The position numbers were made by a program, and so were the translations under genes. This document shows positions 1-21,282 of a stretch of DNA of 51,823 bases, piece after piece. The first letter of the stretch is position 1, and each line of letters starts with the position of its first letter. Source of the DNA: an uncultured Clostridia bacterium (GTDB lineage: Bacteria > Bacillota > Clostridia > Oscillospirales > CAG-382). The notes under the pieces were generated by a model that saw nothing but the letters and a program-made list of their open reading frames with translations, did no database searches and had not been told where the DNA came from. The stretch covers positions 1 through 51,823 of the forward strand of contig CANQTR010000004.1 of NCBI GenBank assembly GCA_947626805.1, given 5' to 3'.

Positions 1-135
1 GGTGTGGTCGTTCGGCGCGGGCGGCACGGTGCGGTCGTTCGGGGTGCGCGGCGCGGTGTGGTCATTCGGCGCGGGCGGCGCGGTGCGGTCGTTCGGGGTG
101 CGCGGCGCGGTGCGGTCGTTCGGCGTGCGCGGCTG
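1..135. repeat. Five imperfect 27-bp tandem repeats
   Basis: Unit ggtgYggtcgttcggSgYgSgcggcgc repeated with 27-bp period. Confidence 0.9.
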
Positions 136-156
136 CCCTTTCGTTTCGCTTTCCAC
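1..156 (-). CDS. 5' part of a hypothetical protein with a 9-aa repeat N-terminus; runs off the window edge
   Basis: GTG at 156 preceded by SD AAGGGGGG and a sigma-A promoter. Frame is open to position 1: MESETKGQPRTPNDRTAPRTPNDRTAPPAPNDHT... Confidence 0.55.
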   Translation of the reverse strand, partial: MESETKGQPRTPNDRTAPRTPNDRTAPPAPNDHTAPRTPNDRTVPPAPNDHT

Positions 157-198
157 TTGCGGTTCCCCCCTTGCTTTCGGTTTGATTCATACAGATTC

Positions 199-227
199 AG
201 TATACACGGTTTCGCGCAACTTGTCAA
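199..227 (-). promoter_or_regulatory. Sigma-A promoter TTGACA-17-TATACT
   Basis: tgtcaa 222-227 and agtata 199-204 on + strand, 17-bp spacer. Confidence 0.8.
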
Positions 228-500
228 GTTTTTCGGTTCGCGGCAAAATCGCGTACCCCGTTGCGACGCGAGCACGAAACGCACAGGAAAATACGGAACC
301 CCGTCGCGATTCAAACGTGAAACGCACAGGCAATGCGTACACGTCGCGCCGCAAGCATAAAACCCCTCGACAATGCCGGTTCGCCGTGCGGCAAAGCAAA
401 TTCCCCCGACAAAAAAGCCCTACAGTCTCCGAAACATATCAAAGACCCGCTTTTATGTTCCGCCGACGCGGTCCGAACAAGCAGATTGCTTCGCTTTGCG

Positions 501-582
501 CACCAAAATGAAAAGTTTTTGAGGATTTTCAAGGAACTTTTTTCAAAAAGTTCCTTGAACGGAAGGGCGGGGCGAATCCGCC
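501..582 (+). repeat. Palindromic dispersed repeat, family Y copy 1
   Basis: TTCAAGGAACTTTTT-TC-AAAAAGTTCCTTGAA hairpin; related copies at ~22261 and ~49363. Confidence 0.8.
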
Positions 583-686
583 GTGAACCTCTTTCGACAA
601 AAAAGAGACCCACGGTCTCCTTTCGGAGCCGAAGGTCCCTTTTGCGCGACGGAAAGCGTTGCGCTCTCCTCGCGATTCCGTTGTTT

Positions 687-1304
687 TCAGAGCCGTTTCT
701 TCAGCGCGTCAAGCAGGATTGCATTCGCATCAGAGTCTCCGAAACCGGCAGTCGTATTGCTGTTGATTAGGGTCACTAAATCATACGCGCCGTCTATGTC
801 CAGCGCGCGGGTCGCCGGCTTGCAATCCTCGTAAAGCCGCATATAGAAGTCAAGCAACTTCTGGTTGGTCGTTTCGCGGCACTTCACCACGTCGGCAATG
901 GCGGCGACTTTCGCCTGGTCCAAATCGTTGCCGGCGTTTTCCCCGTTGTACATCGCGGCGAGACATTCGAGACATTCGAGCGCCTCGTGAATATGCGCGT
1001 TGTCCTGCCGAATGGCTTCCAACTGCTGCAAAACGTACGCGACGGTCGCGTTTCCGGCGTTCGGCGCCGGGGTTTCGAGCGGTTCCTGCACCGGGGTTTC
1101 GAGCGGCTCTTGCGCCGCACCGGGCGCGGTTTTTTTATCTGACATTTTTCGTTCCTCCGTTTTTTGCGGCGGACACGCAAGGCAGATGGTCTGTTCGTCT
1201 ACGAAGCGCGCCCTGCCTTTTTTCACAAGACCTTTCGCCCGTTTCGGGTAGGTCGCTTCATATGCCTTGCCGGTTTCGTCAACGACGGAAATGGTTTTTT
1301 CGAT
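687..1304 (-). CDS. Hypothetical protein with a PLMP/RRXRR-like N-terminal domain; proposed ATC start at 1304 (alternative ATG at 1145)
   Basis: Open frame IEKTISVVDETGKAYEATYPKRAKGLVKKGRARFVDEQTICLACPP precedes MSDKK. SD AAGGGGG lies before the ATC. The C-terminal half is helical-looking (VKCRETTNQKLLDFYMRLYED). Confidence 0.65.
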   Translation of the reverse strand: MEKTISVVDETGKAYEATYPKRAKGLVKKGRARFVDEQTICLACPPQKTEERKMSDKKTAPGAAQEPLETPVQEPLETPAPNAGNATVAYVLQQLEAIRQDNAHIHEALECLECLAAMYNGENAGNDLDQAKVAAIADVVKCRETTNQKLLDFYMRLYEDCKPATRALDIDGAYDLVTLINSNTTAGFGDSDANAILLDALKKRL

Positions 1305-1365
1305 GGGTTCCGACCCCCTTATGCCATTGTTGAAATCCGGTGTAAAAAGTTACGTTTTTTGTGAT
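1279..1365 (-). CDS. Putative 28-aa leader peptide/uORF starting at ATC
   Basis: Strong SD GGAGGAG then ACACTC-ATC; ITKNVTFYTGFQQWHKGVGTHRKNHFRR-stop overlaps the downstream start. Confidence 0.35.
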   Translation of the reverse strand: MTKNVTFYTGFQQWHKGVGTHRKNHFRR

Positions 1366-1389
1366 GAGTGTCTCCTCCGACTTTTCTTC

Positions 1390-1418
1390 AGTATAGCACG
1401 CTTTTCCCGGTTTGTCAT
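1390..1418 (-). promoter_or_regulatory. Sigma-A promoter ATGACA-17-TATACT with extended -10
   Basis: tgtcat 1413-1418, agtata 1390-1395, TG one base upstream of the -10. Confidence 0.65.
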
Positions 1419-3024
1419 CCCTCTTCAACCGAGGGTTGCGGAGCGACCGTTTCCTTGCACGCGGTCCGCAAAATTTCGGTTCTCGTCAAATGGTACTGCC
1501 TTGCGACGTCAATCGCGTAGCTTTGCCCGTAGTCCCCTCGCGCAATCCGGAAAACCCGCTTATGGGACGCTTCGTCCATCAGCGCGCAAATATTGCAGAG
1601 TTTCGATTTTGCGGGACTCGACGTGCGCTCCAGGCGGCAAAGCTCGTGGAAATGCGTCGTCCAGATGCCCCGCGCGCCGATTTCGGCATACGCCGCAAGG
1701 ATTTCGGCGGAAATGGTCGTGGCTTCCGTCGCGTTCGTGCTGGATAGCGCTTCGTCGAACAGGAACAGGCTTCTTTGCGTGATGATTTGGTTGATTTTGT
1801 CGATTTTTTTGCACTCTTCGGACAGTCTGCCGTCCTGATACGAGGTTTTTTGGCGTCGATGAAATGCACCAGAATCGCGTCCGCCATCCGGCAAACCGCC
1901 TTTTCGGCGGGCAGCAAAAGCCCCAAATGCAGCATCGCATAGAGGACGCCGACGGATTTGGTGTAGATGGATTTGCCCCCCTGGTTCGGTCCGGTCAGGA
2001 TATAGATTCCCGCCGTTTCGTCGAAGGACAGGTCGTTTTGCACGATTGCGGACGTGCTCGCCGCCGACAGCGCAAGAATCGGGTGATACAGCCCGGTCAC
2101 GCTGTCGCTCTCCCCGAAGGCGGCTTTGCACAGGGGAAATCCGCTCTTTTTCAGCTCCGCGAGCGGCGTCACGCACGAAACGATGAACCGCCATTCCTCG
2201 AGCAGCGGCAGCAGCGGTTTCAACCGTTCCACAGAGAATCGCTTGACCGCCGACGAACAATGCTTCAGGGAAGCGGAAAAAATCTTGTTGATTGCGGAAT
2301 TGACGGACATGCGGACCGCACCCAACTCCTCGTTGCTCAGCCTACGGTCAATCGGGACCAACGGCGCAAGGCAGTTGTACGTTCGGTTGTCGTCGAACTG
2401 CATCCGAAAAATCCGATTCAGCAGGTCCCCCGATACGTAACATTCGTCGTTCACGGAGACCAGCCCGGCTTCAATCGGGCGCAACTGTGCGTCCAGATTG
2501 ACCCCGACGGTGACGCTTTTGATATGCGTGATGGTGGAAATCCGTTCCCGAACAATCTCGCACAGCTGCTCGTACTCCCGCACGTCGTACAACGTCGATA
2601 CCGTTGCTTCCAGCCGTTTCAGGGAGGCGCTTTCCACCGGATGGTCGGAAAAAATCGCCCGCATTTTCCGCACATACGAAACGTAGGATTCCAACCGTTT
2701 GATGTCGTACAGCAGTTTTTCGTTCGACGGGGCGCCGTCCTTCGCCGTTTGAATCTCGAAGAATTCGCGCAGGATGGAAAAACTCTCGTTCAGCTCGGCG
2801 TAGAGCGTCGGTTTTTGCAAGAGTTCCGCGAACAGCTCCTGCCGCATGGACAGCGTGTCCGCCCGGACGGAGAAGTACCCCCGCAATTCGCGCTTCGGCT
2901 CTCCGACCCGCCTGTCGCGATTCACGTTGAGGAACGAGGACAGGTCCAATTCGTCTATGAAATCGAAATCCTTGAACGACGCTTCCGGCTGACCGTCGAA
3001 CCAAATCAAACTTTCGTTCATCAT
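1415..3024 (-). pseudogene. MutS-related protein (C-terminal MutS ATPase domain), frameshifted at the A6 run 1846-1851
   Basis: Walker A LTGPNQGGKS is in ORF 1579..3024. GRLSEEC, LFLFDEALSST and TTHFHEL continue in the frame of 1415..2260. One extra A restores AKKTSYQDGR. Confidence 0.8.
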
Positions 3025-3042
3025 TGCACCTCCCGTAAAATG

Positions 3043-3348
3043 TTAATCCAGCAGCGCGAGCAGACCGATTGCCGAACAGAATGCCAGGAGCGGATTGAGC
3101 ACCAGGTACACGGTGGAATAGCGGTAGGTTTTCCACAGCTTACAATAGATGTAGTAAAAATACGCTTCAAAAAGGAGGGCGGGGAACGTGACCATGACGA
3201 AATGGGTGAACGAGAGCGCGAACAGCGCGAAATACAGCAGGAAAAACACCGCGCCCATCCGCAAGAGCTTGTGCAGGGGCGAAAAAATCAAATGCACCGT
3301 GTCGCTTGCGTCCAAAATGCGGGAAAGCATCATCGCGAGCCTTGTCAT
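3043..3348 (-). CDS. Small membrane protein
   Basis: ATG 3348 with GAGGGG SD; about three hydrophobic segments; directly upstream of the MutS-like gene. Confidence 0.6.
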   Translation of the reverse strand: MTRLAMMLSRILDASDTVHLIFSPLHKLLRMGAVFFLLYFALFALSFTHFVMVTFPALLFEAYFYYIYCKLWKTYRYSTVYLVLNPLLAFCSAIGLLALLD

Positions 3349-3507
3349 GCCGACCGTCCCCTCGTTTTTGCGGTTGCCGTCCGCGCCGCGCCGCCGGAGG
3401 CGGAAAGGCATGTCCTTTCCGGTTTGTCAACCCCTTTCGGCAGGCAGTTTGCGGTGAACGTTTCTTTACAAATATTTATAAACACGCGTTGCATATGCGC
3501 TTTTCGT

Positions 3508-4407
3508 TCACATTCTTGACGAAAGCGTATTATACACCTTCGAATGCGGCGGGACGGAACGCGTCAGCCACACGTTGCCGCCGATGATGCTGTCGTGACC
3601 GATGACCGTGTCCCCGCCGAGGATGGTCGCGCCGGCGTAAATCACAACCCGGTCCTCGATGTCCGGGTGGCGCTTGATGCCCTTGACCGGGTGCCCGTCG
3701 TCGTCGAGTTCGAAACTACGCGCGCCGAGCGTGACCCCTTGATAGAGCTTGACGTCCTGCCCGATGACGCATGTCTCGCCAATGACGACGCCGGTGCCGT
3801 GGTCGATGAAGAACCGTTCGCCGATTTTCGCGCCCGGGTGGATATCGATGCCGGTTTTCTGGTGGGCGTACTCGCTCATGATGCGCGGCAGGAGCGGCAC
3901 GCCGGCGCAAAGCAGCGCGTGCGCGAGCCGATGAATGCTGACCGCCTCGAACGACGGGTAGGCGAGCAGGATTTCCAGCGGGCTTTTCGCCGCCGGGTCG
4001 CCGAGATATGCCGCGTCGATGTCGGTTTGCAGCACCCGCATGACCTCCGGCAGCGCGCCGACGAACTGCTCGACCGCGCGGACCGCCTGTGTCTCCGGGC
4101 AGACCGTCCCGTCCGCACAACGGAAGGCGGTTTTGGTCAGTTCGCAAAGCAGTTCGGCGCCCTGTTCGAGTTTTTCCGCGACGAAAGCGGGCAAGCCGTC
4201 CGCCGGAATCGGCTCGGTCGAAAACAGGTTCGGGTACATCGCCATGCGGAACAGTTCGGTCGCCCGCTGTGTCCGCAACTTGACCCCGAAGCCGCCCGCT
4301 GCCGCGTCGGTCCCGGCACAGCGGAGGGACAGCAGTCGTTCGGGCAGTCCGTCCGGGACCCGCGCGCCGGTTTTGGGCGGGCGCTCCCCCTTGGTTTGTT
4401 CCGTCAT
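3508..4407 (-). CDS. cysE: Serine O-acetyltransferase
   Basis: [32 protein letters not shown] hexapeptide motifs; SD GGAGG. Confidence 0.93.
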
Positions 4408-4436
4408 GAAATCCACCTCCGTGGTCGATTTATTAC

Positions 4437-4465
4437 AGTATACACGATTCGCGCCGGTTTTGCAA
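4437..4465 (-). promoter_or_regulatory. Sigma-A promoter of cysE (TTGCAA-17-TATACT)
   Basis: ttgcaa 4460-4465, agtata 4437-4442. Confidence 0.6.
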
Positions 4466-4651
4466 GGGGTTTTCCGGTTTTCGGACGGTTTTTTCGGAAG
4501 TCCGCCCAGCACGCATAAAACAGGCGTTCTCGCACATTATTTTGTCGATTCTCGTCGAACAAATGTGCTGCAATGCCGGACAAAAAACGCTCGTTTTCGA
4601 CCCGTAAAAAGGGTGCCGAACACGCGTTCTTGTACCACACTTTGAGAAAAG

Positions 4652-4835
4652 TTATCCACATCGCAATGTGGACAAAATGTGGATAACTTGGCACTTTTCC
4701 ACATGTTATCCACACGTTGTCCACACGGTTATCCACACTGAAAATCCAGCTGTACCAACGGTTTTTCCCACTTTTCCACAAAATCCGCCCGCCTACTACT
4801 ACGACTACTACTTCCATATACCAAAAGAATTTCTT
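4652..4835 (+). other. oriC: Replication origin (oriC): DnaA-box cluster plus basal unwinding system with DnaA-trios
   Basis: TTATCCACA at 4652, 4706, 4729 and reversed at 4678; TTGTCCACA at 4717 and reversed at 4667; TTTTCCACA at 4695 and 4772. Then GC-rich CCGCCCGCC and TAC-TAC-TAC-GAC-TAC-TAC at 4794-4811. Confidence 0.85.
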
Positions 4836-5108
4836 TGTGGTGGGGCGCCCGCGCGGGCAGACGCGCGCGAGGGGTTCGACGGGGGTCGAAATTGCCATGA
4901 ATTTTTCGAGCCTTTTTTGAGCCGAAAAATTCGTTTCGTCCTGTTGCGGTAGGCAAGCGTAAAGAGCAGCGTGCAGATTTTTACAATTTGCACAAATTTT
5001 GAAATTTCAAAAAGCGAAAATTCTATGTTTTGCCAATTGACAAAGAACGTTCGTTCGTGCTATACTGCATTCATGACGAACATGCGTTCTCACTTGCCAA
5101 ACGGATTT

Positions 5109-6482
5109 TCAAGCGAGGACGGACAGCGTCGGGAACGCGCCGAACGACGAACGCACCGAAACGCCGGACGCGGCAAGCGTGTGCAGCCGTTCGGGCAGCC
5201 CCTCCGGGACGCGTTCGCCCGGCAAAAGCACCGGAATGCCCGGCGGATACGCCCAAACGTATTCGAGCGAGATTTCCCCCGCGGACGCGGCGAGCGGAAC
5301 GGTTCGGGACGGCGCGCCATACAGTTCAAACGGCTGGAAAACGGCTTGGGGCAAGGATTTTTGCGTGTTCTGCCCGAACAGCGGCGGGTGTTCCGGCGCC
5401 CCCTCCCCCGTCGCTTCGCCGTCCAGCGTCAGAACCGCGTCGGCGAACCGCCCGAGCGTTTCGCGGTCGTCACAGACCGAGGTCATCGCGAGCAGGCGGT
5501 CCGGGTAGGCGTACTCCACGTCGATGGCGAACCGCTCCCGCAACGCTTTCGCGGTCTCCGCGCCGGACGTCCCGCCGGTCAGGAGCAACAGCTTCCCCGG
5601 CTCGGCGTTTTCGGCGTCATACAGGCGGAAATGCCGCAAGTCATCGAACATCCGTTCTCTTGTCTCGTCCAACGCGTCCGCATAGGCGCGCCAAACCGCC
5701 GCCGCGTCCCCGCGCTCCAGAAAGGCGAGGCACTCGTCGACCGACGCGAGCAGGACGTAGGACGGGCTGGACGTTTCAAAGACGCTGCACGCGAAACGGA
5801 GCCGCTCCGTCCAGTCCGCCGGCGCGTGCAACAGCGCCGTCTGGGTCAGGGCGGGCAGGGTCTTGTGCAGGCTGTGTACGACGAAATCCGCGCCGCACCG
5901 AACGGCTGTTCTTCCCTCCCAACCGGGCAGGAATGCGAGGTGCGAGCCGTGCGCCTCGTCCACCAGCAGGCGCGCGCCGTGTCGGTGGCAAATCGCGGCG
6001 ATGGCGGAAACGTCGCTGACCACGCCCTCATAGGTCGGCGAAGTGATGACCGCAAGTTCGATATTCTGTCCGTTTTGGAACGCTTTCTCGACCGTTTCGG
6101 GCAGAATCGTGCCGTCCGGTTCGGGGACGAGAAAGGCGAGCGGCAGGCGGCAGAGCTCCGCCGCATTGTAGACCGAGCGGTGGCAGTTGCGGGCGATGAG
6201 CAATGTTCCGCGCCCGGTTGCCCGCACGGCGGAAAGCAGCGCGCCGGTCCCGCCGTTCACCAGAACGAACGTCTGTTCACATCTCCAGAGGGCGGACGCG
6301 CGCCGTTCGAGCGTTCGCAAAACGCCGGTCGGGGCGTGAAAGTCGTCGAGGGCGGGCAGTTCGGTCGCGTCGAGGCGGTAGGGCAGTACGGACGGGAAGC
6401 GGCGCTTGCCGCCGGGCATATGCATAGGCAGGGCGGTCTCGGCGAGCCGTTCGAGCAGGGGGAGCAGGCGGTCGTTTCGCAT
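5109..6482 (-). CDS. PLP-dependent Orn/Lys/Arg decarboxylase family protein (YaaO/SpeA-like)
   Basis: HMPGGK, ARNCHRS, TSPTYEG, VDEAHG, SLHKTLPALTQ, YPPGIP motifs; SD AAAGGAG. Confidence 0.9.
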   Translation of the reverse strand: MRNDRLLPLLERLAETALPMHMPGGKRRFPSVLPYRLDATELPALDDFHAPTGVLRTLERRASALWRCEQTFVLVNGGTGALLSAVRATGRGTLLIARNCHRSVYNAAELCRLPLAFLVPEPDGTILPETVEKAFQNGQNIELAVITSPTYEGVVSDVSAIAAICHRHGARLLVDEAHGSHLAFLPGWEGRTAVRCGADFVVHSLHKTLPALTQTALLHAPADWTERLRFACSVFETSSPSYVLLASVDECLAFLERGDAAAVWRAYADALDETRERMFDDLRHFRLYDAENAEPGKLLLLTGGTSGAETAKALRERFAIDVEYAYPDRLLAMTSVCDDRETLGRFADAVLTLDGEATGEGAPEHPPLFGQNTQKSLPQAVFQPFELYGAPSRTVPLAASAGEISLEYVWAYPPGIPVLLPGERVPEGLPERLHTLAASGVSVRSSFGAFPTLSVLA

Positions 6483-6839
6483 GGCGTGGCTCCTTTCGGT
6501 TCGGGTACGCGTGCAGTATAGCACATTTTGCGGGAAAAAGAAAGGGGGTTTCGCAATTTGCGCGGTCGTTTCGCGAAAAAATCGTGCCGTCGGGTCGCCG
6601 ATGCGTGTGAGCGGCATGCGGTGCGCGGGAATTTTGCGTTTTGCCGTGTGAAAGGTTGCGTCCGTCGCAAGAGGAACGTATTTGCGATAATTCCCACAAG
6701 CCGGCAAATCGGGGCAATTATTCCGCGCATCCGCTCGTCACGAGCACCGTTACACACCCCGCAAGAATCTTTATGCTCCGCGAAAACCCCTATATCACGC
6801 CCCGCGAAACCTTTAAGTTTCCCTCGCGAACCACGTTGT

Positions 6840-7107
6840 TCACACACCAGGGAGGAACGGGCGGCGGGCATACGACGCGGCGCCGCCGTAGCACAGACGC
6901 AATACCTCGCGCACACGCGCGTCCGTCCGAAATGCCTCCGAGCGCCGCAACGCCGCCGGACGCGACACGACCGGGACCGTCCGCTTCTTCGCGGTCCGAC
7001 GCAAGAATGCGCGCCCCTCGGCGTTCGCCGCGAGCAAAAGCCCGAACGGCACGTCCCTTCCCGGCGCGTCCGGCGCAAACCCGAACAGCACCGCCCACGC
7101 CGCGCGC
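6840..7107 (-). pseudogene. Detached copy 1 of the tmcAL 3' end (268 bp)
   Basis: Colinear with 9501..9768, no indels, same stop codon, no 5' part. Confidence 0.92.
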
Positions 7108-7416
7108 AAGACAAGGCGGCGCAAGGGTGCGCCGCGTGGAAGGGATTCGCGGAAGTTGACTGGCTATTAAAATTGTGCAATGCAGAACAATCACAAGAAA
7201 TCACATAATCCGGAAAGGGCGGATATATAGGCTATATAAACTATATACGTTACGCAAAGATAATTTTCACAAACCCGAAAAACCGGGGCAGGCTTTCTGC
7301 ATACGTGCTTATCGCAAACCACTTCCCTTTTATGCTCCACGAAAACCCCTTTACTACGCCCCGCAAAAATTTATAGTCCCGCGAAACCTTCACGTTTCCC
7401 CCGCGAACCCCGTTGT

Positions 7417-7684
7417 TCACACCCCGGGGAGGAACGGGCGGCGGGCATACGACGCGGCGCCGCCGTAGCACAGCCGCAACACGTCGCGCACACGCGCGTC
7501 CGTCCGAAATGCCTCCGCGCGCCGTAGCGCCGCCGGACGCGAAACGACCGGGACCGTCCGCTTCTTCGCGGTCCGGCGCATGAATGCGCGCCCCTCGGCG
7601 TTCGCCGCGAGCAAAAGCCCGAACGGCACGTCCCTTCCCGGCGCGTCCGGCACGAATCCGAACAGCACCGCCCACGCCGCGCGC
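7417..7684 (-). pseudogene. Detached copy 2 of the tmcAL 3' end (268 bp)
   Basis: Colinear with 9501..9768; same breakpoint as copy 1. Confidence 0.92.
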
Positions 7685-9500
7685 AAGACAAGTCGGCGCG
7701 GAGCGCGCCGCGTGGAAGGGATTCGCGTGAGTTGATTTGAATGGCTAAATCATACAATGCCGAACAATCATAAAAATTGCGCAATCCGAAAAGGACGGGT
7801 ATATAATCTACACACGATAATTTCCACAGCGTCGGCGAACCGGGGCAATCGTCCCCACCTCCACTCATCGTAGGCACCTTTACAGCCCAGCAAAAGCTTT
7901 ACGGTCCGTTGCACGTCTGTGCCGGATTGAACGGCGCAATGTAAGACGATGCGAGGAAGGGCGATGCGGGGTAAAGCAACGCGGGATATGACGGCGCGGG
8001 GTAGGGCAGCGCGGAGCGCGCCGCGTAAAAGGATTCGCGGAAGTTGCGCGAAAGTTGATTAAAAAGAACACGAAATAATTCCGGTGCCGGTAATTTTTCT
8101 TTGTGGAAATATTGCGGGGACGGACGGTGTGACCCGGAGTGACGGGGACGCAAAAGCGGAACACCGTTCCCCCAGTCCGGGGCGGCGCGAAGGCGCGCCG
8201 CGCGGAAGGGATTCGCAGGAGTTGACAAATTTGGCAAATACAAAAAATGGCGCAAGCAAAAATTATTCCACACACCCAATTCCCACAAGACCCTTTGCAA
8301 TCCCCGCGGTCCTATTTGCAGTCTGGCAGCCCAGGCGGCGCAAAACAGGGCGGCGCGAGGGCGCGCCGCGCGGAAGGGATTCGCGGAAGTTGATTGAAGA
8401 AGAACAGCGAACGATAAAATTAGTTTTCTTTAAGGAAACATTGAAAAAATCATTTCAGACAGGCATAGACTACGAGCATACATATTTCCCCGCCCTTTCC
8501 ACTCCCGGCAGGGGCGGAAGTGTGGTCCGGAGCGGCGCTAGGCGGGGCGGCGCGAGGGTGCGCCGCGCGGAAGGGATTCGCGAGAGTTGATTGAATAAGA
8601 AATTTTTGCAGTTCAAAGTACTTATAAAATCGCTCAATTTAGAAGGGACAGCTATATACCCCACACAGAGAAAAATCCCACAGAGCCGACCAATAGAAGC
8701 GATTGTTCCACGCATTCTCTCGACGCAAACCGTTTTACACGCGCTGTAAACCTTTTCGCCCCATGCGAAAACCCCTTTGCACGCACCACAAAACCTTTAC
8801 GGTACGCCGCAAATTACCTTACAGTCCGGGCGGGATTGAGCCGTGCAAGACAGGGCGGCGCGTGGACGCGCCGCGCAAAAGGATTCGCGGGAGTTGATTT
8901 ATAAAAGAAAAAATGGTTCCACAGATAGCGATATCAAAGATATGGGAAAAGCAATGTGATTGCGGGAATTACTTTGTATACTCGTATACTCACTCACCGC
9001 AAAGCTCCTTAAAGTTTGAGTAAGAATAGATAGCTATACGCTACACAGGGATAATTTCCACAAAGCTGACAAAACGGGGCAATCGTTCCGCACATCGGTT
9101 CGTCACAAGCACCCCTACACGCCCCGCAAGAATCTTTATGCTCCGCGAAAACCCCTTTATCACGCCCCGCAAATCTTTACTGCATCAGAAAAACTTTACT
9201 ACTCGAACAAGAATGGCTTTCTCAAGGTGGGGCGGCGCGGAGCGCGCCGCGCAAAGGAATTCGCGTGAGTTGACTGGCTATTAAAATTGTGCAATGCAGA
9301 ACAATCACAAAAAATCACACAATCCGGAAAGGGCGGATTATAAATCTACATGCGTTACGCAAATATAATTTCCCCAAATCCGGAAAACCAGGGCAGGCTT
9401 TCTGCATACATGCTTATCGCAAACCACTTCCCTTTTATACTCCGCGAAAACCCCTTTATCACGCCCCGCGAAACCTTTAAGTTTCCCTCGCTAACCACGT

Positions 9501-10577
9501 TCACACACCGGGGAGGAACGGGCGGCGGGCATACGACGCGGCGCCGCCGTAGCACAGCCGCAACACATCGCGCACACGCGCGTCCGTCCGAAATGCCTCC
9601 GCGCGCCGTAGCGCCGCCGGGCGCGAAACGACCGGGACCGTCCGCTTCTTCGCGGTCCGGCGCAAGAATGCGCGCCCCTCGGCGTTCGCCGCGAGCAAAA
9701 GTCCGAACGGCACATCCCTTCCGGGCGCGTTCGGCGCGAACCCGAACAGCACCGCCCACGCCGCGCGCCGCACGCGGGACGCGGTGTACACCTTATTCGT
9801 GCAGCGTTTCACCAGCCCGTCGAAGTCGTTCTCGACCGCCGCGCACGCGACCAGCCGGGCGAACAGTTCGTCCGGAACCCCGTACTTTCCCGGTTCCGGG
9901 CGGTTCCGAAGGGCGGCGAGCGCCAATTTGCCCGCGTCCGCCGTCGCGCGCGGGAAGGACGGGTCCTGCCGTAACGCCGCCTCCGCCTCCGCCGGGATAG
10001 ACCCGGACGGGACGCCCCGTTTCCGCAAATCCGTCGAACTTGCGTAGCCCGGTTCGCGTTTCAGCACGTCGCACGGCAGACCGACCCGCGCCGCCGCACG
10101 CAAGTATTCGATGGCGAGGATATCGTTCGGCTTTTGCCGCGTCGCCCGTCCGAGCGCTTGTTCCAGCGCCGCCGGGTAGGACAGCGTTCCGTCCGCGCGA
10201 ATCATCGCTTGCGCCCGCGCTTCCGCACATTCCCGCGCCCGCGCCGCCGCACGCAATCCGTCCGCGTCGCTCTCCGCCGAAAACGCCAACACATCCACGC
10301 CGACCCCCTTCGCGAGCGACACCCCGCCGGACGCGAAATCCCTCGCCGACGCACAGCACCACGGCGCGGGCAGTTCCAAAACCAAATCCGCCCCGCACGC
10401 GACCGCCGCCCGCGCCCGCGCGTACACGTCCGCCACGGCGACCTCCCCCCGCTGGGTCAAATCCCCGCCGAGCAGGCACACGACGGTCCCGTACCGCTCC
10501 CGCAAGCGCTCCAACTGCCGCTTGTGCCCGAAATGGAACGGGTTGTACTCGCAAATCACCGCGCACGCTTTCGTCAT
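9501..10577 (-). CDS. tmcAL: tRNA(Met) cytidine acetate ligase / YlbM-family HIGH nucleotidyltransferase
   Basis: CEYNPFHFGH, TQRGE, RARAA-GADLVLELP, SARDFA, PNDILAIEY motifs; divergent from ackA. Confidence 0.88.
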   Translation of the reverse strand: MTKACAVICEYNPFHFGHKRQLERLRERYGTVVCLLGGDLTQRGEVAVADVYARARAAVACGADLVLELPAPWCCASARDFASGGVSLAKGVGVDVLAFSAESDADGLRAAARARECAEARAQAMIRADGTLSYPAALEQALGRATRQKPNDILAIEYLRAAARVGLPCDVLKREPGYASSTDLRKRGVPSGSIPAEAEAALRQDPSFPRATADAGKLALAALRNRPEPGKYGVPDELFARLVACAAVENDFDGLVKRCTNKVYTASRVRRAAWAVLFGFAPNAPGRDVPFGLLLAANAEGRAFLRRTAKKRTVPVVSRPAALRRAEAFRTDARVRDVLRLCYGGAASYARRPFLPGV

Positions 10578-10592
10578 TTCCCGAAAAACCCC

Positions 10593-10642
10593 TTGCATTT
10601 TTCTTTCAAACGTATTATAATAGATGTAGGAAAAAATGTCAA
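10593..10642. promoter_or_regulatory. Overlapping divergent sigma-A promoters for ackA (+) and tmcAL (-)
   Basis: + strand: TTGCAT 10593, 17 bp, TATAAT 10616. - strand: TTGACA 10642-10637, 17 bp, TATAAT 10619-10614. Confidence 0.75.
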
Positions 10643-10656
10643 GGAGATGTTTGGTT

Positions 10657-11859
10657 ATGTTTGTTCTCGTCGTCAACGCGGGGAGTTCCTCGCTGAAGTA
10701 TCAGCTGTTCGATATGGACCGCTCGGAAATGCTCGCGAAAGGGCTTTGCGAGCGAATCGGCACGGACGGTCTGTTCTCCCATCAAGTCCCCTCGAAGGGC
10801 GTCGAAATCAAGAAAATCGCCGCCCCCATGCCCACCCACGCGGACGCGGTCAGCCTGCTCGTCAAGTACCTGACCGACCCGGTCTACGGCTGTATCAGGG
10901 AGATGTCCGAAATCTCCGCCGTCGGGCACCGTATCGTTCACGGCGGTCCGTGGCTGATTGACTCGGTGCGAATCGACGGTCCCGACGGGAAGGTCCTGTC
11001 CGACCTTCGCAAGTGCGTCGACCTCGCCCCGCTCCACACGAAGGCGCATTTGCAGGGCATCGAGGGCTGTATGCAGGTCATGCCGGACGTTCCGCAAGTG
11101 CTGGTCATGGACACGGCGTTCCACCAGACGATGCCGAAGAAAGCGTATTTCTACCCACTTCCCTACGAGATTTGTGAAAAATACGCGATTCGCCGCTACG
11201 GGTTCCACGGCACCTCGCACCGCTACGTTTCCGGCAAGGCGCTCGAACTGCTCGGCAACCCGAACGCGAAAATCGTCACCTGCCACCTCGGCAACGGCTC
11301 GTCCATCTCGGCGGTCAACGCGGGCAAGTGCGTGGACACGTCGATGGGCTTCACGCCGCTCGACGGGGTCATCATGGGGTCGCGTTGCGGCGGTATCGAC
11401 CCGGCAATCGTGCCGTTCCTGATGGAAAAGGAGCATATCCCCGTGTCCGAAATGGGCGATTGGATGAACAAGAAGTGCGGGTTCCTCGGCGTGTCCGGCG
11501 TTTCGTCCGACTTGCGCGACGTCGGCGCGGCGGCGGAGGCGGGCGACGAGCGCGCGCGGCTCTCGCTGGACATTCTTGCCTACCAAATCAAGAAGTACGT
11601 CGGCGCTTACGCCGCCGCGATGAACGGGCTGGACGCCGTCGTGTTCACGGCGGGTATCGGCGAAAACAACCCGGATATCCGCCGCGAATCCATGGCGGAC
11701 ATGGAGTTCCTCGGCATCCGTATCGACCCGGTCCGCAACGCCGACCGTTCCGCGACCCGTATCAGCGCCGACGACAGCCGCGTGCAGGTGTTCGTCATCC
11801 CGACGAACGAGGAGCTGGTCATCGCGTCCGACACGCTTCGAATCTCGCAACAAAAATAG
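10657..11859 (+). CDS. ackA: Acetate kinase
   Basis: VNAGSSSLK, GHRIVHGG, DTAFHQT, YGFHGTSH, HLGNGSS, TNEE motifs. Confidence 0.97.
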   Translation: MFVLVVNAGSSSLKYQLFDMDRSEMLAKGLCERIGTDGLFSHQVPSKGVEIKKIAAPMPTHADAVSLLVKYLTDPVYGCIREMSEISAVGHRIVHGGPWLIDSVRIDGPDGKVLSDLRKCVDLAPLHTKAHLQGIEGCMQVMPDVPQVLVMDTAFHQTMPKKAYFYPLPYEICEKYAIRRYGFHGTSHRYVSGKALELLGNPNAKIVTCHLGNGSSISAVNAGKCVDTSMGFTPLDGVIMGSRCGGIDPAIVPFLMEKEHIPVSEMGDWMNKKCGFLGVSGVSSDLRDVGAAAEAGDERARLSLDILAYQIKKYVGAYAAAMNGLDAVVFTAGIGENNPDIRRESMADMEFLGIRIDPVRNADRSATRISADDSRVQVFVIPTNEELVIASDTLRISQQK

Positions 11860-11882
11860 CATTGAAAGGGAGTCTATCCCCC

Positions 11883-13259
11883 ATGAAAACCTATGATGTG
11901 GTTATCGTCGGCGCCGGTCCGGGCGGGATTTACGCCGCCTACGAACTGCAGGAGCGCGCCCCGCAACTGAAGGTCGCCGTGCTGGAAGCCGGGCACCCGC
12001 TCGAGCGGCGCAAATGCCCAATCGACGGGAAAACCGTCCTCTCTTGCGTCAACTGCCCGCGTTGCTCAATCATGAGCGGCTTCGGCGGGGCGGGCGCGTT
12101 CTCGGACGGCAAGTACAACATCACCAACGACTTCGGCGGCACGCTCCACGAGCGCATCGGCAAGCGCACCGCTCTCGAACTCATGCGCTACGTCGACAGC
12201 GTCAACCTCGAAAACGGCGGGGCGGGCTGCAAGCTCTATTCGACCGCCGGGAGCCGGTTCCAAAAGCTCTGCCTGCAAAACCGGCTCAAACTGCTGGAGG
12301 CGTCCGTCCGGCACCTCGGCACGGACGTCAACGCGGTCGTTTTGCGCAATCTCTACGACCGGCTCAAGGATTGGGCGGACTTCTATTTCGACACGCCGGT
12401 GCGGCATATTCGTCTTGACGGCGATGGATTCGTGGCGGAATGTGACGGCGAGTCGTTCGCGTGCGCGAAGTGCGTAGCGTCGGTCGGGCGGAGCGGGAGC
12501 AAGTGGATGGAAACGGTTTGCGCGGAATTGGGCATCGGGACGAAGTCCAACCGGGTGGACCTCGGCGTCCGCGTGGAGTTGCCCGCCGTCGTGTTCGAGC
12601 ACCTGACGGACGAGCTGTACGAGAGCAAAATCGTCTACCGGACCGAAAAATTCGAGGACAACGTCCGCACGTTCTGCATGAATCCGCACGGAATCGTCGT
12701 CGAGGAGAACACGAACGGCATCGTCACGGTCAACGGGCACAGCTACGAGGACCCGGCGCTGCAGACCCAGAACACCAACTTCGCACTCCTGGTGTCCAAG
12801 CACTTCTCCGAGCCCTTCAAGGACAGCAACGGCTACGGCGAAAGCATCGCGCGGCTGTCGAACATGCTCGGCGGCGGGGTCATGGTCCAGCGGTTCGGCG
12901 ACCTCACGCGCGGCAGGCGGAGCACCGTGCAGCGCATCGAGGAGGGGTTGGTCGTTCCGACCCTGTCCGCCACGCCCGGCGACCTCAGTCTCGTTTTGCC
13001 CAAGCGGATTCTCGACGGCGTCATCGAGATGATTTCCGCGCTCGACCGCATCGCGCCGGGGACCGCCAACGACGATACCCTGCTCTACGGCGTCGAGGTC
13101 AAGTTCTACAACATGGAGGTCGAACTGTCCGACCGACTCGAAACCTGCCACCCCGGGCTGTTCGTCATCGGCGACGGCAGCGGTATCACCCATTCCCTGT
13201 CCCACGCGTCCGCCAGCGGCGTGTTCGTCGCCCGCGAAATCGCGGAAAGCGTTTCGTAG
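11883..13259 (+). CDS. FAD-dependent oxidoreductase (COG2509-like)
   Basis: VIVGAGPGG dinucleotide motif, GFGGAGAFSDGK, VRTFCMNP, YGVEVKFY, GDGSG. Confidence 0.88.
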   Translation: MKTYDVVIVGAGPGGIYAAYELQERAPQLKVAVLEAGHPLERRKCPIDGKTVLSCVNCPRCSIMSGFGGAGAFSDGKYNITNDFGGTLHERIGKRTALELMRYVDSVNLENGGAGCKLYSTAGSRFQKLCLQNRLKLLEASVRHLGTDVNAVVLRNLYDRLKDWADFYFDTPVRHIRLDGDGFVAECDGESFACAKCVASVGRSGSKWMETVCAELGIGTKSNRVDLGVRVELPAVVFEHLTDELYESKIVYRTEKFEDNVRTFCMNPHGIVVEENTNGIVTVNGHSYEDPALQTQNTNFALLVSKHFSEPFKDSNGYGESIARLSNMLGGGVMVQRFGDLTRGRRSTVQRIEEGLVVPTLSATPGDLSLVLPKRILDGVIEMISALDRIAPGTANDDTLLYGVEVKFYNMEVELSDRLETCHPGLFVIGDGSGITHSLSHASASGVFVAREIAESVS

Positions 13260-13914
13260 GGGTACGAAGAGTACGGTGGGGGTAGTAACTACCCCCACAC
13301 CCCCGTAGCGCGAAGTCAACTGTCGTTGACTTCGGGGGATAAAATTTTTGAACGCGTCGGCTGGAATTTGCGCCTTCCCACAAAAAAGCCGTCACCCCCA
13401 AGGTCTGTAGGTTGCTATCGCAATTCGCAAAAGTCACGGACTTTTGCGAACGCCGAAGTTTCCCCTTGCGGCTCAACCGCGAGCCGCATTTTCGCCCTGC
13501 GCGTTGCGCTGGGCGAAAACCGTGGAAATTCGAGCTGGCGCCCCCAATTTTCGTTATTAGCTTGAAACAAACAAAAATTCCGGCGGACAGCAGTCCGTCG
13601 GAATCTTTTACGCAATTTGGGTGCGAGCGAGGGCGGCTTGCAGGCAAGCCGCCGGAGCCGGTGAACACCGGGTCGCGAAGGCAAAATCGAGAGAGCACCG
13701 AACGAAAACCCCGAGGCGGGGCGGTAAAAAACCCGGGCGAGCAAGCACCGCACGCAAACCCGAGGCAGGGAGGCGGAATTTTATCTAAAAACCCCTCGAA
13801 TTTACCGGCGTAGCCGGGAAATTCGCGCTACGGGGGGTGTGGGGGGGACGAGTTCCCCCACCGTACCCCTCGTACCCCTCCGTACCCTCGTACCCCTCCG
13901 TACCCGCGTACCCC
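13256..13914. repeat. Composite REP-like element (family X) with inverted ends, between convergent genes
   Basis: Left GTACGGTGGGGG..CCCCCACACCCCCGTAGCGCGAA and its inverse at 13821-13866; core shared with ~29504-29551. Confidence 0.85.
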
Positions 13915-20250: not shown

Positions 20251-20716
20251 GGCGGCATATGCCCGCCCACGGGGCGATATTTTGACTGTTTTTCGACAAA
20301 AACGCGCCCGCAAATCGCGCTCGCGGCAACACACGTCCGCCAACGGGTCGATATTTTGACTGTTTTTCGGCAAAAAAGAGCGCCCGCAAACGCGCTCGCG
20401 GCGGTGTCAGCGGCTTTGTTGCCGCGCCGCTTTACTCTGTGGCTTTCTCATGCAAAACGTCAAGCCGTTTTTTCCATTCAAAACATCACGCCGTTTCGAA
20501 TCGCAATTATCCCCTTTTCGGAACGTGCCGACAATGTCGACTCGTCAAAAAACGCTTCGGCTTGCGCCAATCCTGACGCCGTCTTTGCCGGTTTTCTCGC
20601 AAGGTGCCCAACCCCGAACACGATTGCGTTCGAAGCGGGCGGCATATGCCCGCCCACGGGGCGATATTTTGCCTGTTTTTCGACAAAAACGCGCCCGCAA
20701 ATCGCGCTCGCGGCAA
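20251..20716 (+). repeat. Three copies of a ~75-bp intergenic repeat
   Basis: GGCGATATTTTGACTGTTTTTCGACAAAAACGCGCCCGCAAATCGCGCTCGCGGC units at ~20251, ~20330, ~20638. Confidence 0.85.
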
Positions 20717-20751
20717 ATTTCCTACATATTTATATATAAGGAGATTTGCAC

Positions 20752-21282
20752 ATGGATTTCACCGGAACACGCACGGAAAAGAATTTGCACGACGCGTTTG
20801 CCGCCGAGGCGTCCGCGTACACCCGCTACGGCTTTTACGCCGCCGCGGCGCGGGCGGAGGGGAGCAACGCCGTCGCCGACCTGTTCGAGCAGACCGCCGT
20901 CAACGAGCGGGCGCACGCCGACATCTTCTTTCGCCTGATTCACGGCACCCGTATGCCCGACACGTCCACCAATTTGCGCGACGCGGCGGGCGTCGAACAC
21001 TACGAATGGGCGGACTTCTACGCGAACGCGGCGAAAACCGCCAAGGCGGAGGGGTTCGACGAGGTCGCAAAGCGGTTCGAGCAGGTCGCCGCCATCGAGC
21101 AGGAACATGAAAAACGCTACCTCGCCATGCTGGACGCGTGGAATACCCGGCGTCTGTTCGTCACGGAGGAGGTTTCGGTTTGGCAGTGCGCCAATTGCGG
21201 GCATATCTACACCGGCACGCAAGCGCCGTCGGTCTGCCCCGTGTGCGCCTATCCGCAAGCGTATTTTTTGCGGCAGAATTAA
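20752..21282 (+). CDS. rbr: Rubrerythrin
   Basis: TEKNL..AFAAE, NERAHA, EHYE, EQEHE; C-terminal CANCG..CPVC rubredoxin-like domain. Confidence 0.92.
   Translation: MDFTGTRTEKNLHDAFAAEASAYTRYGFYAAAARAEGSNAVADLFEQTAVNERAHADIFFRLIHGTRMPDTSTNLRDAAGVEHYEWADFYANAAKTAKAEGFDEVAKRFEQVAAIEQEHEKRYLAMLDAWNTRRLFVTEEVSVWQCANCGHIYTGTQAPSVCPVCAYPQAYFLRQN

What the first reader, a model, noticed from the sequence alone, without database searches (positions are those of the whole stretch)
6840..9768. Archive of alternative tmcAL 3' ends that look selected as protein
Seen: the last 268 bp of tmcAL (9501-9768) recur at 6840-7107 and 7417-7684 with no indels and the same stop. Both copies break at the same point (CCACGCCGCGCGC|AAGACAAG), fused to the 45-bp hairpin repeat. 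By hand count, copy 1 differs from the gene in ~14 codons, ~11 synonymous (others D>E, A>S, N>D). Copy 2 differs in ~10 codons, ~7 synonymous. Inference: neutral decay of a dead duplicate would give mostly non-synonymous changes, so these look like once-functional alleles. That fits repeated integration of a ~577-bp unit (repeat + spacer + tmcAL tail) that targets and restores tmcAL, or cassette-like gene conversion of the C-terminus of a tRNA ac4C34 enzyme. No recombinase is in the window. This is the best candidate for an undescribed system here.
Basis: partly seen in the sequence, partly recalled or inferred. Interest (0 to 1): 0.85.

Follow-up and report, generated by a model that had tools for sequence, protein, structure and literature searches.

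The report
Stacked spare ends of tmcAL gene
Two extra copies of the last 268 bases of a tRNA-modifying enzyme gene sit downstream of it inside an array of hairpin-bounded non-coding cassettes, and they look like displaced, once-working gene ends, much as a prophage leaves a spare end beside the E. coli icd gene.

Summary
The last 268 bp of the HIGH_NTase1/TmcAL-family gene (9501-9768) recur at 7417-7684 (96.3%) and 6840-7107 (94.4%). There are no indels, the stop is the same, and both dead copies join a hairpin repeat at the same point. Formal dN/dS is 0.09-0.16.

The copies lie in a ~2.9-kb array of eight hairpin-bounded non-coding cassettes. The array replaces a lipoprotein gene that sister species carry there. 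The same hairpin family forms arrays in two other rabbit-gut Clostridia genomes, one of them distant. It also occurs in a phage- or GTA-like head-gene cluster, so it moves horizontally.

Best reading (0.4): the dead tails are displaced gene ends, like icdC beside prophage e14. They were left by successive insertions of small cassettes that carry their own tmcAL end, as in CIME-type accretion. The recombinase lies elsewhere or the step used homology.

Rivals remain. One is a single microhomology duplication followed by import of alleles. Another is wrong phasing of strain alleles in a low-coverage MAG. A third is chance. No recombinase could be linked, no circle was seen and no conspecific genome was found. 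I rate it a new variant of a known kind, of moderate interest.

The parts
9501..10676 (-). Intact TmcAL-family gene (HIGH_NTase1/UPF0348). The longest ORF has 391 aa, and the family match starts at residue 36, so the true start is probably about 100 nt inside.
   Evidence: Pfam PF05636 E 3e-58, 198 bits against a cut-off of 27, residues 36-376. Solved TmcAL of Thermotoga (5y0r) E 2e-21 over residues 36-215. NCBIfam NF010191 scores 169 bits, below its cut-off of 360.
9501..9768 (-). Active 3' end ('tail G'): the last 89 codons plus stop.
   Evidence: A Logan contig of run X1 (record 7, 9694-9934, 0 mismatches) bridges 9768/9769.
7417..7684 (-). Dead copy 2 of the 3' end. It is 96.3% identical to tail G and is fused at 7684/7685 to hairpin H2.
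   Evidence: No Shine-Dalgarno sequence lies ahead of the only in-frame start (TTG at 7686), read.
6840..7107 (-). Dead copy 1 of the 3' end. It is 94.4% identical to tail G and is fused at 7107/7108 to hairpin H1. It is the outermost and most diverged copy.
   Evidence: The tree (c1,(c2,G)) follows from shared derived sites.
7108..7160 (+). Hairpin repeat H1: an 8-bp GC stem plus a conserved 3' flank ...GGAAGGGATTCGCGGAAGTTGAC.
7685..7737 (+). Hairpin repeat H2.
7996..9275 (+). Six further hairpin repeats (H3 about 7996-8065, H4 8174-8226, H5 8342-8395, H6 8539-8592, H7 8847-8899, H8 9222-9275) with five tail-less cassettes between them (U3 to U7, 105-320 nt); U2 (7738-7995) precedes H3.
   Evidence: On the minus strand three of the hairpins score as intrinsic terminators.
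7161..7416 (+). Spacer U1. It is homologous to U8 (11.6% substitutions plus indels, counted over the H+U blocks 7108-7416 and 9222-9500) and has a GATAAT-like box and about 20-nt iteron-like repeats.
9276..9500 (+). Spacer U8, which abuts the stop codon of the live gene. It supplies the gene's last 2-3 codons and its stop (PGV*).
6575..6839 (+). Spacer U0. It is U7-like (6683-6806) and then U8-like at its end. Left of about 6575 the native decarboxylase promoter region resumes.
   Evidence: and comparison with G024 locus L003.
6575..9510 (.). The whole cassette array. In sister species this space holds a lipoprotein-like ORF (about 1.25 kb where it is seen complete, in G024).

Best explanation
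The two outer copies are displaced 3' ends of tmcAL. They are gene-end pseudogenes of the same kind as icdC beside prophage e14 in E. coli.

Proposed steps (inferred): a small hairpin-bounded cassette of the form [tmcAL tail - spacer - hairpin] entered the gene at one fixed point. That point is the GCGC overlap at 9768/9769. The cassette's own tail took over as the working end of the gene. The previous tail was pushed downstream, now headed by the cassette's hairpin. This happened at least twice, so the tails are stacked in order of age: copy 1 oldest, then copy 2, then the live tail.

Because each tail served as the real gene end in some lineage before it was displaced, the copies differ mainly at synonymous sites.

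The cassettes carry no genes. They are either deletion scars of larger integrated elements, collapsed between direct hairpin repeats, or non-autonomous units. Non-autonomous units could be moved by a recombinase encoded elsewhere, or by RecA acting on the 268-bp homology.

Shown: the anatomy, the shared junction, the constraint signal, the horizontal spread of the hairpin family, and reshuffling of cassettes between samples. Inferred: the order of events, the circular or incoming intermediate, and the enzyme.
For: - There are three in-register copies with the same break point, each dead copy fused to a hairpin unit, and the gene is intact.
- dN/dS is 0.09, 0.16 and 0.15. Synonymous single-base changes number 12 of 15, 7 of 10 and 10 of 14, against 4.2, 2.5 and 3.7 expected at random (P <5e-5, 0.002, 0.0003). 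The two dead copies compared with each other also show this.
- The three tails are 94.5-96.5% alike but only 87-89% like the tails of the nearest species. They share a derived end (PGV* plus spacer).
- The neighbouring hairpin-plus-spacer blocks (7108-7416 vs 9222-9500) differ by 11.6%, much as the synonymous sites of their tails do (dS 0.10), while dN is 0.016.
- The array is an insertion. G078, G001 and G024 have tmcAL followed directly by a lipoprotein-like ORF.
- The hairpin family is mobile. It is found in 2 of 164 genomes of the family. It also occurs in G180, whose TmcAL homologue is only 31% identical. It sits in a terminase-portal-head cluster. In all, 52 copies (51 distinct) were found in the 8 stretches examined.
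- Contigs from two other studies' samples join the same cassettes in another order.
- Precedents: e14/icd/icdC (PMC13626634, passages read); CIME accretion (PMC5704250, passages); tandem ssrA islands (PMC3146451, passages).
Against: - No integrase, transposase or reverse transcriptase was found among the 40 window ORFs scanned. The recombinases found elsewhere in the genome cannot be tied to this site.
- No phage, plasmid or viral contig carries the unit or a tmcAL tail.
- 0 of 3 related genomes inspected has anything inserted at this point of tmcAL.
- No circular form was seen.
- The tree (c1,(c2,G)) matches the physical order, which in-situ serial duplication also predicts.
- The private changes of copy 2 (2 non-synonymous, 3 synonymous) fit neutral decay. 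Against omega = 0.5, P is only 0.006, 0.10 and 0.04.
- Six cassettes without tails lie between copy 2 and the gene. They need a second way of entry.
- The 4-nt GCGC overlap at the break is equally typical of illegitimate recombination.
- The haplotype phasing rests on a low-coverage short-read MAG.
Confidence: 0.4

Rival explanations
1. One illegitimate event made the first tandem duplication. For example, replication could have switched template between the GCGC in tmcAL and the GCGC at the foot of a hairpin. Unequal crossing-over then made the third copy. The allelic differences came later, by ordinary homologous recombination or gene conversion that wrote alleles from diverged strains into any of the three copies. 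No dedicated mobile unit is involved.
For: The identical junction in both dead copies needs only one origin. A 4-nt microhomology lies at the break, next to a stable 8-bp GC hairpin. The tree (c1,(c2,G)) equals the physical order. Strains 90-99% alike co-occur in rabbit-gut samples. No recombinase lies nearby.
Against: It needs imports into the silent copies frequent enough to hide their neutral decay. The mosaic test on the tails is not significant (max chi-square P = 0.16, 0.83, 0.87). It does not explain why the hairpin family builds arrays at several loci and crosses between distant hosts.
Confidence: 0.25
2. Phasing artefact. Tail-to-hairpin junctions are real, but the short-read assembler threaded alleles from co-resident strains through a repeat. 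Some 'dead' sequence would then really be another strain's live gene end. Low dN/dS would be the trivial between-strain pattern, and the copy number per genome may be lower.
For: The MAG has 168 contigs and is 81% complete. Depth is about 2-6x per run. The k=31 Logan contig of X1 crosses from the copy-2 to the copy-1 haplotype, and its 11 listed substitution types fit a switch at the 32-nt identical stretch 7544-7575 in all but one. Identical stretches of 70 nt between copies exceed common k-mer sizes (site table).
Against: Each copy has a unique flank (U0 to the left of copy 1, H2-U2 to the right of copy 2, the gene body to the right of tail G). The junction-proximal haplotypes differ within 46 nt of each junction, so three distinct joined forms must exist in the reads. 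All other X1 contigs listed match the window with 0 mismatches.
Confidence: 0.15
3. Plain in-situ serial duplication with neutral decay of the dead copies. The excess of synonymous changes is partly due to the live branch and partly to chance in a small sample (10-15 differences).
For: Tree and order agree. The private changes of copy 2 look neutral (2 non-synonymous, 3 synonymous). P against omega = 0.5 is 0.10 for gene vs copy 2.
Against: Gene vs copy 1 gives P = 0.006 and copy 1 vs copy 2 gives P = 0.04 against omega = 0.5. The private changes of copy 1 are 1 non-synonymous to 3-6 synonymous. My hand binomial on the site table gives P of about 0.003-0.08. Non-synonymous divergence (1.6%) is far below that of the adjacent hairpin-plus-spacer blocks (11.6%).
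Confidence: 0.08
4. The copies are kept for use. They could be a store for programmed switching of the TmcAL C-terminus by gene conversion or deletion. They could be expressed as free C-terminal fragments. Or they could be templates for antisense RNA against tmcAL, made from the GATAAT-like boxes in the spacers, which point into the tails.
For: The reading frames are open (107 and 110 aa). GC3 of the copy-1 ORF is 0.83 against 0.81 for the gene. Promoter-like boxes in U1/U8 face the tails. A deletion between tails would put a stored tail back in service, as e14 excision does for icdC (PMC13626634).
Against: Only 3-4 conservative residue differences exist and there is no hypervariable patch. 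The enzyme is a cytoplasmic housekeeping one. No ribosome-binding site precedes the tail ORFs, and a terminator-like hairpin lies directly upstream. Constraint from antisense pairing would not spare third codon positions. The locus is absent from sister species.
Confidence: 0.05

Closest known systems
e14 prophage in the E. coli icd gene, with the icdC C-terminal pseudogene (phage 21 recalled as similar)
   Same: An element sits in the 3' part of a protein-coding housekeeping gene and supplies a replacement C-terminal coding segment. The displaced original end stays as a pseudogene at the far side. The differences are multiple synonymous changes plus conservative ones (D>E). Recombination between the two ends gives a working chimera (PMC13626634, passages read).
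   Different: e14 is a 15-kb prophage with its own integrase and makes one displaced end. Here the intervening DNA is 309 bp and 1.8 kb of non-coding hairpin cassettes. There are two displaced ends, no recombinase is nearby, and no excision was observed.
CIMEs and tandem accretion at a gene's 3' end (ICESt1-type elements; Dehalococcoides ssrA islands)
   Same: [quoted passage not shown] Later arrivals integrate into the att site next to the gene, which gives tandem units each bounded by a repeat of the gene end (PMC5704250; PMC3146451).
   Different: Known CIMEs are kilobases long and still carry genes, and their att repeats are about 20-30 bp. Here the units are 0.58-2.1 kb with no ORF, the repeat is 268 bp of coding sequence, and no cognate integrase or intact relative of the element was found.
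Integron cassette arrays / CALINs
   Same: Same-orientation arrays of variable cassettes, each ending in a conserved imperfect-hairpin site. The order of cassettes differs between strains. The arrays are found without a neighbouring integrase.
   Different: The repeat lacks the attC architecture. There is no inverse-core R''/R' pairing, and the hairpin is a simple 8-bp stem with an asymmetric 22-nt flank. The cassettes have no ORFs. No IntI was linked.
REP/BIME or IS200/IS605-derived palindrome elements (PATEs)
   Same: Short GC-rich hairpins spread through intergenic DNA and are often clustered. They act as terminators on one strand. An IS200-type TnpA exists in G000 and G078.
   Different: The IS200 copy has its own, unrelated hairpin and a low GC content. 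No RAYT is flanked by these repeats. The cassettes between the hairpins are long and varied.

Membership tests
TmcAL / HIGH_NTase1 (UPF0348) for the host gene | Full-length match to the family profile above the curated cut-off | tested here: met
   PF05636: 198 bits against a cut-off of 27, residues 36-376 of 391.
TmcAL / HIGH_NTase1 (UPF0348) for the host gene | Similarity to experimentally solved TmcAL | tested here: met
   5y0r (T. maritima TmcAL) E 1.7e-21 and 5y0p (B. subtilis) E 1.6e-18, N-terminal 180 residues only.
TmcAL / HIGH_NTase1 (UPF0348) for the host gene | NCBIfam equivalog score | tested here: not met
   NF010191 scores 169 bits against a cut-off of 360. It is a family member, but the exact function (ac4C34 of tRNA-Met) is inferred.
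Integrative element that replaces its target gene's 3' end (e14/icd type; CIME accretion) | Direct repeats of the target gene's 3' end bound each unit and all start at one point of the gene | tested here: met
   Three copies in register with the same break.
Integrative element that replaces its target gene's 3' end (e14/icd type; CIME accretion) | The target gene stays intact, and the displaced ends differ mostly synonymously | tested here: met
   Open 391-aa ORF. dN/dS 0.09-0.16.
Integrative element that replaces its target gene's 3' end (e14/icd type; CIME accretion) | A site-specific recombinase in the element, or a related intact element elsewhere with the same att | tested here: not met
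   None among the 40 window ORFs scanned. No tail or unit in phage, plasmid or viral collections. The G078 phage-like cluster carries hairpins but no tmcAL tail.
Integrative element that replaces its target gene's 3' end (e14/icd type; CIME accretion) | Excision to a circle and an empty site in some cells or strains | not testable with these tools
   Only short Logan contigs at low depth were available. No circle junction can be told apart from the tandem junction.
Integron / CALIN | attC site with R''-L''...L'-R' imperfect palindrome and GTTRRRY core | tested here: not met
   The unit ends in GTTGAY, but no inverse core pairs with it. The stem is a simple 8-bp hairpin with a one-sided flank.
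Integron / CALIN | Cassettes carry promoterless ORFs | tested here: not met
   No credible ORFs lie in the cassettes. 1-nt indels in the conserved part rule out coding.
Diversity-generating retroelement (template/variable repeat at a gene's 3' end) | Differences confined to template adenines; a reverse transcriptase nearby | tested here: not met
   At the 15 sites that differ, copy 1 has A at only one. No RT among the ORFs scanned.
Silent-cassette variation systems (pilS, vls type) | Donor copies differ from the expressed gene mainly by amino-acid changes in variable patches of a surface protein | tested here: not met
   3 of 14 and 3 of 10 differing codons change a residue, all conservatively, and the enzyme is cytoplasmic.
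IS200/IS605-type palindrome elements | The transposase's own end hairpins match the dispersed hairpins | tested here: not met
   The TnpA on C110 has a different AT-richer hairpin.

The most novel reading that the evidence does not exclude
The hairpin-bounded cassettes are a new kind of non-autonomous mobile cassette. They are carried between rabbit-gut Clostridia by a phage- or GTA-like particle and inserted hairpin-edge-first by an enzyme encoded elsewhere. They can pick up the 3' end of a host gene and then use it as a homing address. This builds, integron-fashion but without coding cassettes, an ordered archive of former gene ends that can be put back in service by deletion.
Probability: 0.12. 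Interest if true: 0.8.

Novelty: new variant of a known kind. Interest (0 to 1): 0.45.

Why it matters
If the stacked tails are displaced working ends, this locus records repeated replacement of part of a housekeeping tRNA-modification gene. The replacing units are tiny and gene-less, far smaller than the prophages and islands known to do this. That would extend accretion at a gene's 3' end down to sub-kilobase non-coding cassettes. It would also point to an uncharacterised hairpin-cassette family that moves between distant gut Clostridia. If the signal is instead a phasing artefact, it is a useful warning for dN/dS on repeats in low-coverage MAGs.

Tried and rejected
**Readings tested and rejected**
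- DGR: the changes are not at template adenines.
- CRISPR: the only Rfam hits were CRISPR-DR20 at 21 bits (gathering score 42), inside a tail, and isrG at 16 bits (gathering score 100). The four related loci gave nothing either.
- tRNA target: 0 tRNA or tmRNA genes in the window.
- Integron attC: no inverse core.
- Coding repeat: 1-nt indels in the conserved part.
- IS200 link: the transposase's hairpin is unrelated.
- IS91/Y2 transposase: no hit, but the control genomes were silent too, so this says nothing.
- Gene fragments captured in the arrays of G078 and G180: tblastx and blastn against G000 found only repeats and the phage-like region.

**Searches that found nothing useful**
- Collections of phages and plasmids gave no match.
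- Viral contigs gave 0 matches for the hairpin pattern. The tail protein gave one irrelevant 27-residue match.
- Metagenome contigs: the best TmcAL relative is only 52% identical, so there are no conspecific loci.
- Protein database: the best clusters are 91% and 81% identical, and clustering at 90% hides alleles.

**Weak or uninformative results**
- Strand of the hairpin from wobble pairs: 3 copies favour one strand and 4 the other, by my reading of the table.
- Mosaic test on the tails: not significant.
- Sequencing runs: no RNA holder was listed.
- In X1 the stretches 6808-7061 and 9348-9601 had no contig cover. I draw no conclusion from that.

**Papers**
- The search for 'tmcAL' plus 'integration site' listed 10 of 25 papers; none of the 10 was relevant by title or abstract. 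So I found no printed report of tmcAL as an attachment site in that search.
- Paper supplements were not consulted.


Full report
**1. The observation**

The minus-strand ORF 9501-10676 is a HIGH_NTase1/TmcAL-family gene. Pfam PF05636 gives E 3e-58. Solved TmcAL of Thermotoga and Bacillus match at E 1e-18 to 1e-21 over the catalytic half. The NCBIfam equivalog score is below its cut-off.

The last 268 bp of the gene recur at 7417-7684 and 6840-7107. There are no indels, the frame and stop are the same, and these are the only three places in the 1.97-Mb assembly.

Both dead copies end at CCACGCCGCGCGC and run straight into AAGACAAG plus a hairpin repeat. The break is ambiguous by four bases. 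The left edge of other hairpin units also reads GCGC or GTGC (H5, H7, contig C40). So the join lies in a GCGC microhomology. In G000 the gene reads CGC at this codon, where three sister species read CGT or AGA.

**2. Is the 'selected as protein' signal real?**

Nei-Gojobori dN/dS is 0.09 (gene vs copy 1), 0.16 (gene vs copy 2) and 0.15 (copy 1 vs copy 2). I placed the same base changes at random positions for comparison. That gives 4.2, 2.5 and 3.7 synonymous changes, against 12 of 15, 7 of 10 and 10 of 14 observed (P <5e-5, 0.002, 0.0003).

Neutrality of both branches is too easy a null. If a dead copy decays while the live gene is constrained, omega should be about 0.5. Against that, binomial P is 0.006, 0.10 and 0.04.

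I polarised the changes with three outgroup tails. Copy 1 has 1 non-synonymous to 3-6 synonymous private changes, and copy 2 has 2 to 3 (site table). The signal therefore rests mostly on copy 1.

A second line of evidence comes from the neighbouring hairpin-plus-spacer blocks (7108-7416 and 9222-9500). They differ by 11.6%, like dS of their tails (0.10), while dN is 0.016. So constraint is likely but not overwhelming with 10-15 sites.

**3. Context**

The copies lie in an array (about 6575-9510) of eight copies of a conserved unit of about 53 nt. The unit has an 8-bp GC stem, a small loop and a flank GGAAGGGATTCGCGNNAGTTGAY. All copies are in one orientation. They are separated by non-coding cassettes of 105-320 nt, or 520 nt where a tail is included.

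On the tmcAL strand the hairpins look like intrinsic terminators. Three of the window's copies (H1, H2 and H5) and 6 in G078 locus L016 score as such.

The longer cassettes share a GATAAT-like box and 2-6 tandem repeats of about 20 nt (CGCGAAAnCCnTTTA-like).

Sister species G078 (TmcAL 92% identical), G001 and G024 have a single tmcAL followed directly by a lipoprotein-like ORF, and in G024 then by the decarboxylase. So the array is an insertion that replaced that ORF and the last 3-4 codons of tmcAL. G000 ends ...PGV*, while G078 ends ...PGMGD*.

All three tails share this derived end and the first 39 nt or more of spacer. They are 94.5-96.5% alike, against 87-89% to other species. They are therefore copies made after the array joined the gene, and they belong to one species-level lineage.

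**4. The hairpin family is mobile**

A pattern scan found it in 2 of 164 genomes of the taxonomic family: G000, and G078 with 13 matches. A scan of 185,579 species' genomes returned 6 stretches: 5 in two rabbit-gut 'uncultured Clostridia' MAGs (G078, and G180, which I looked at next) and a single match in a Hyphomicrobium MAG that I take as chance.

G180 has a TmcAL homologue only 31% identical to G000's, yet its hairpins are near-identical. It also shares 1.1 kb at 84-87% nucleotide identity with G000 contig C40.

C40 carries terminase, portal, major head and holin genes. The only hairpin copy outside the window sits there, between terminase and portal. The matching cluster in G078 contig C19 is studded with hairpin cassettes.

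In all I found 52 copies (51 distinct) in the 8 stretches examined. Stem changes include compensated pairs: A-T to G-C at the loop end, and G-C to A-T in G078 C6.

**5. Reads**

Of the 11 runs listed as holders, four are from one rabbit-gut sample and hold 48-68% of the sampled words. The others hold 19% or less.

Laid Logan contigs are short and shallow. In X1, 7 of the 8 records listed match the window with no mismatch. One of them (9694-9934) bridges the tail-G/gene junction.

The eighth (526 nt, 7235-7735) has 13 mismatches, and its loose end reads like the start of U1/U8. The 11 substitution types listed for X1 fit, in all but one, a path that follows copy 2 up to the 32-nt stretch 7544-7575. 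That stretch is identical in both copies. The path then follows copy 1 into H1 and U1. That is what a k=31 assembler would do on the structure as assembled.

This supports the adjacencies U1 to tail 2 and tail 1 to H1 to U1. It also shows how fragile the phasing is.

Contigs from two other studies (X5 record 10, X7 record 24) join the same cassettes in another order. H6 is followed by U4, and H5 joins U7 with U5, H6 and U6 skipped. So cassettes are reshuffled at the hairpins between strains. These joints were laid at 90% likeness and should be read with care.

**6. Mechanism**

The anatomy is that of an element in the 3' part of a gene that brings its own replacement end and leaves the old end behind. 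In E. coli, e14 sits between icd and the icdC C-terminal pseudogene. The two differ by several synonymous changes and two D>E changes, and excision gives a working chimera (PMC13626634, passages).

Decayed elements that keep only their att repeats (CIMEs) are joined in tandem by later arrivals at the att site next to the gene (PMC5704250). Dehalococcoides stacks many islands behind ssrA, each ending in a repeat of the gene's end (PMC3146451).

I therefore read the tails as displaced ends stacked by at least two insertions at one point. The units are either scars of larger elements, collapsed between direct hairpin repeats, or gene-less cassettes moved in trans or by homology.

What is missing is the enzyme and any intact relative.
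- None of the 40 window ORFs scanned is a recombinase.
- Tyrosine recombinases lie on C2, C6, C54 and C66.
- An IS200 TnpA lies on C110, but its hairpin is unrelated.
- Serine-recombinase fragments lie at the ends of C29 and C72.
- None of these can be tied to the site.
- Nothing similar is in the phage, plasmid or viral collections.

**7. Rivals**

(a) One microhomology-mediated duplication, then unequal crossing-over, then import of diverged alleles by homologous recombination. This fits the single junction and the tree (c1,(c2,G)).

(b) Wrong phasing of co-resident strain alleles, which would make low dN/dS trivial. Three distinct junction-linked haplotypes argue that at least the joined forms are real.

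(c) Chance.

(d) A programmed or expressed use of the copies. The few conservative residue changes, the missing ribosome site and the absence from sister species speak against this.

**8. Verdict**

This is a new variant of a known kind: gene-end displacement by integration or accretion. It is unusual for the tiny, gene-less, hairpin-bounded units and for the mobile hairpin-cassette family in which they sit. Long reads from the source sample are the decisive test.

Noticed in passing
L016 1-2300; L018 400-2560 and 6640-7816; L014 1-1950; L013 2900-5740 and 7030-8000: Arrays of the same hairpin unit, with varied non-coding cassettes, occur in two other rabbit-gut Clostridia MAGs (G078, same genus; G180, TmcAL only 31% identical). 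Several cassette types recur: one with TGnCATAAT-like boxes, one with TATAAAT plus a hairpin, and one with GCAA-tetraloop stems. The arrays often sit at contig ends. Their function is unknown.
   Followed up: partly
G000 contig C40 (L132) 1-13659; G078 C19 21.7-35.2 kb; G180 C94: A roughly 13.5-kb phage- or GTA-like cluster (large terminase, portal, major head protein, holin; no integrase seen) is shared by all three genomes. G000 C40 and G180 C94 are 84-87% identical over 1.1 kb despite the distant hosts. Hairpin cassettes lie in its intergenic regions.
   Followed up: partly
window 13264-13773, 27437-27556, 29213-29387, 29637-29799: A second dispersed repeat family of about 100-200 nt (with TTCGCAAAAGTC...GACTTTTGCGAA palindromes) matches G078 C19 and at least 10 other G000 contigs (C25, C33, C40, C58, C70, C91, C96, C98, C121, C136, C152).
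   Followed up: no
window 10636-11859 (+): Acetate kinase (PF00871, E 1e-138) is transcribed divergently from tmcAL, an enzyme of a family that uses acetate and ATP. The same pairing is seen in G001, G024 and G078.
   Followed up: no
window 9498-9510: The live gene lacks a GTT triplet just after the stop codon. Both dead copies have it, and so do contigs from three other samples (X5, X6, X7). The gene's last codons (PGV*) come from the spacer, not from the ancestral gene (PGMGD* in G078).
   Followed up: partly
G000 contig C110 48-404: An IS200-type TnpA (Y1_Tnp, E 1e-39) sits on a low-GC stretch at a contig end. A partial homologue sits at a contig end in G078. None was found in G001, and only a weak fragment (21 bits, below the cut-off, with an internal stop) in G024. 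This is co-occurrence with the hairpin family, but its own hairpin differs.
   Followed up: partly
G000 contigs C29 7-246 and C72 8259-8498: Two equal-scoring serine-recombinase (Resolvase) matches lie at contig ends. They are probably one large serine recombinase gene broken by the assembly, or a repeat.
   Followed up: no
L016 2437-3603; L018 5175-6464 (-); L013 5749-7023 (-); G000 C13 13516-14295: A Ser/Thr-rich lipoprotein gene with a conserved leader lies divergently next to hairpin arrays in G078 (two paralogous loci) and G180. G000 has a homologue on C13 with no hairpin detected nearby.
   Followed up: no
window 20329-20390 and 20716-20777 (minus strand): Two near-identical repeats of about 60 nt (…GCCGCGAGCGCGATTTGCGGGCGCGTTTTTGTCGAAAAACAG…) lie about 390 nt apart, just upstream of a rubrerythrin gene. 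I saw them by chance in a loose motif scan.
   Followed up: no
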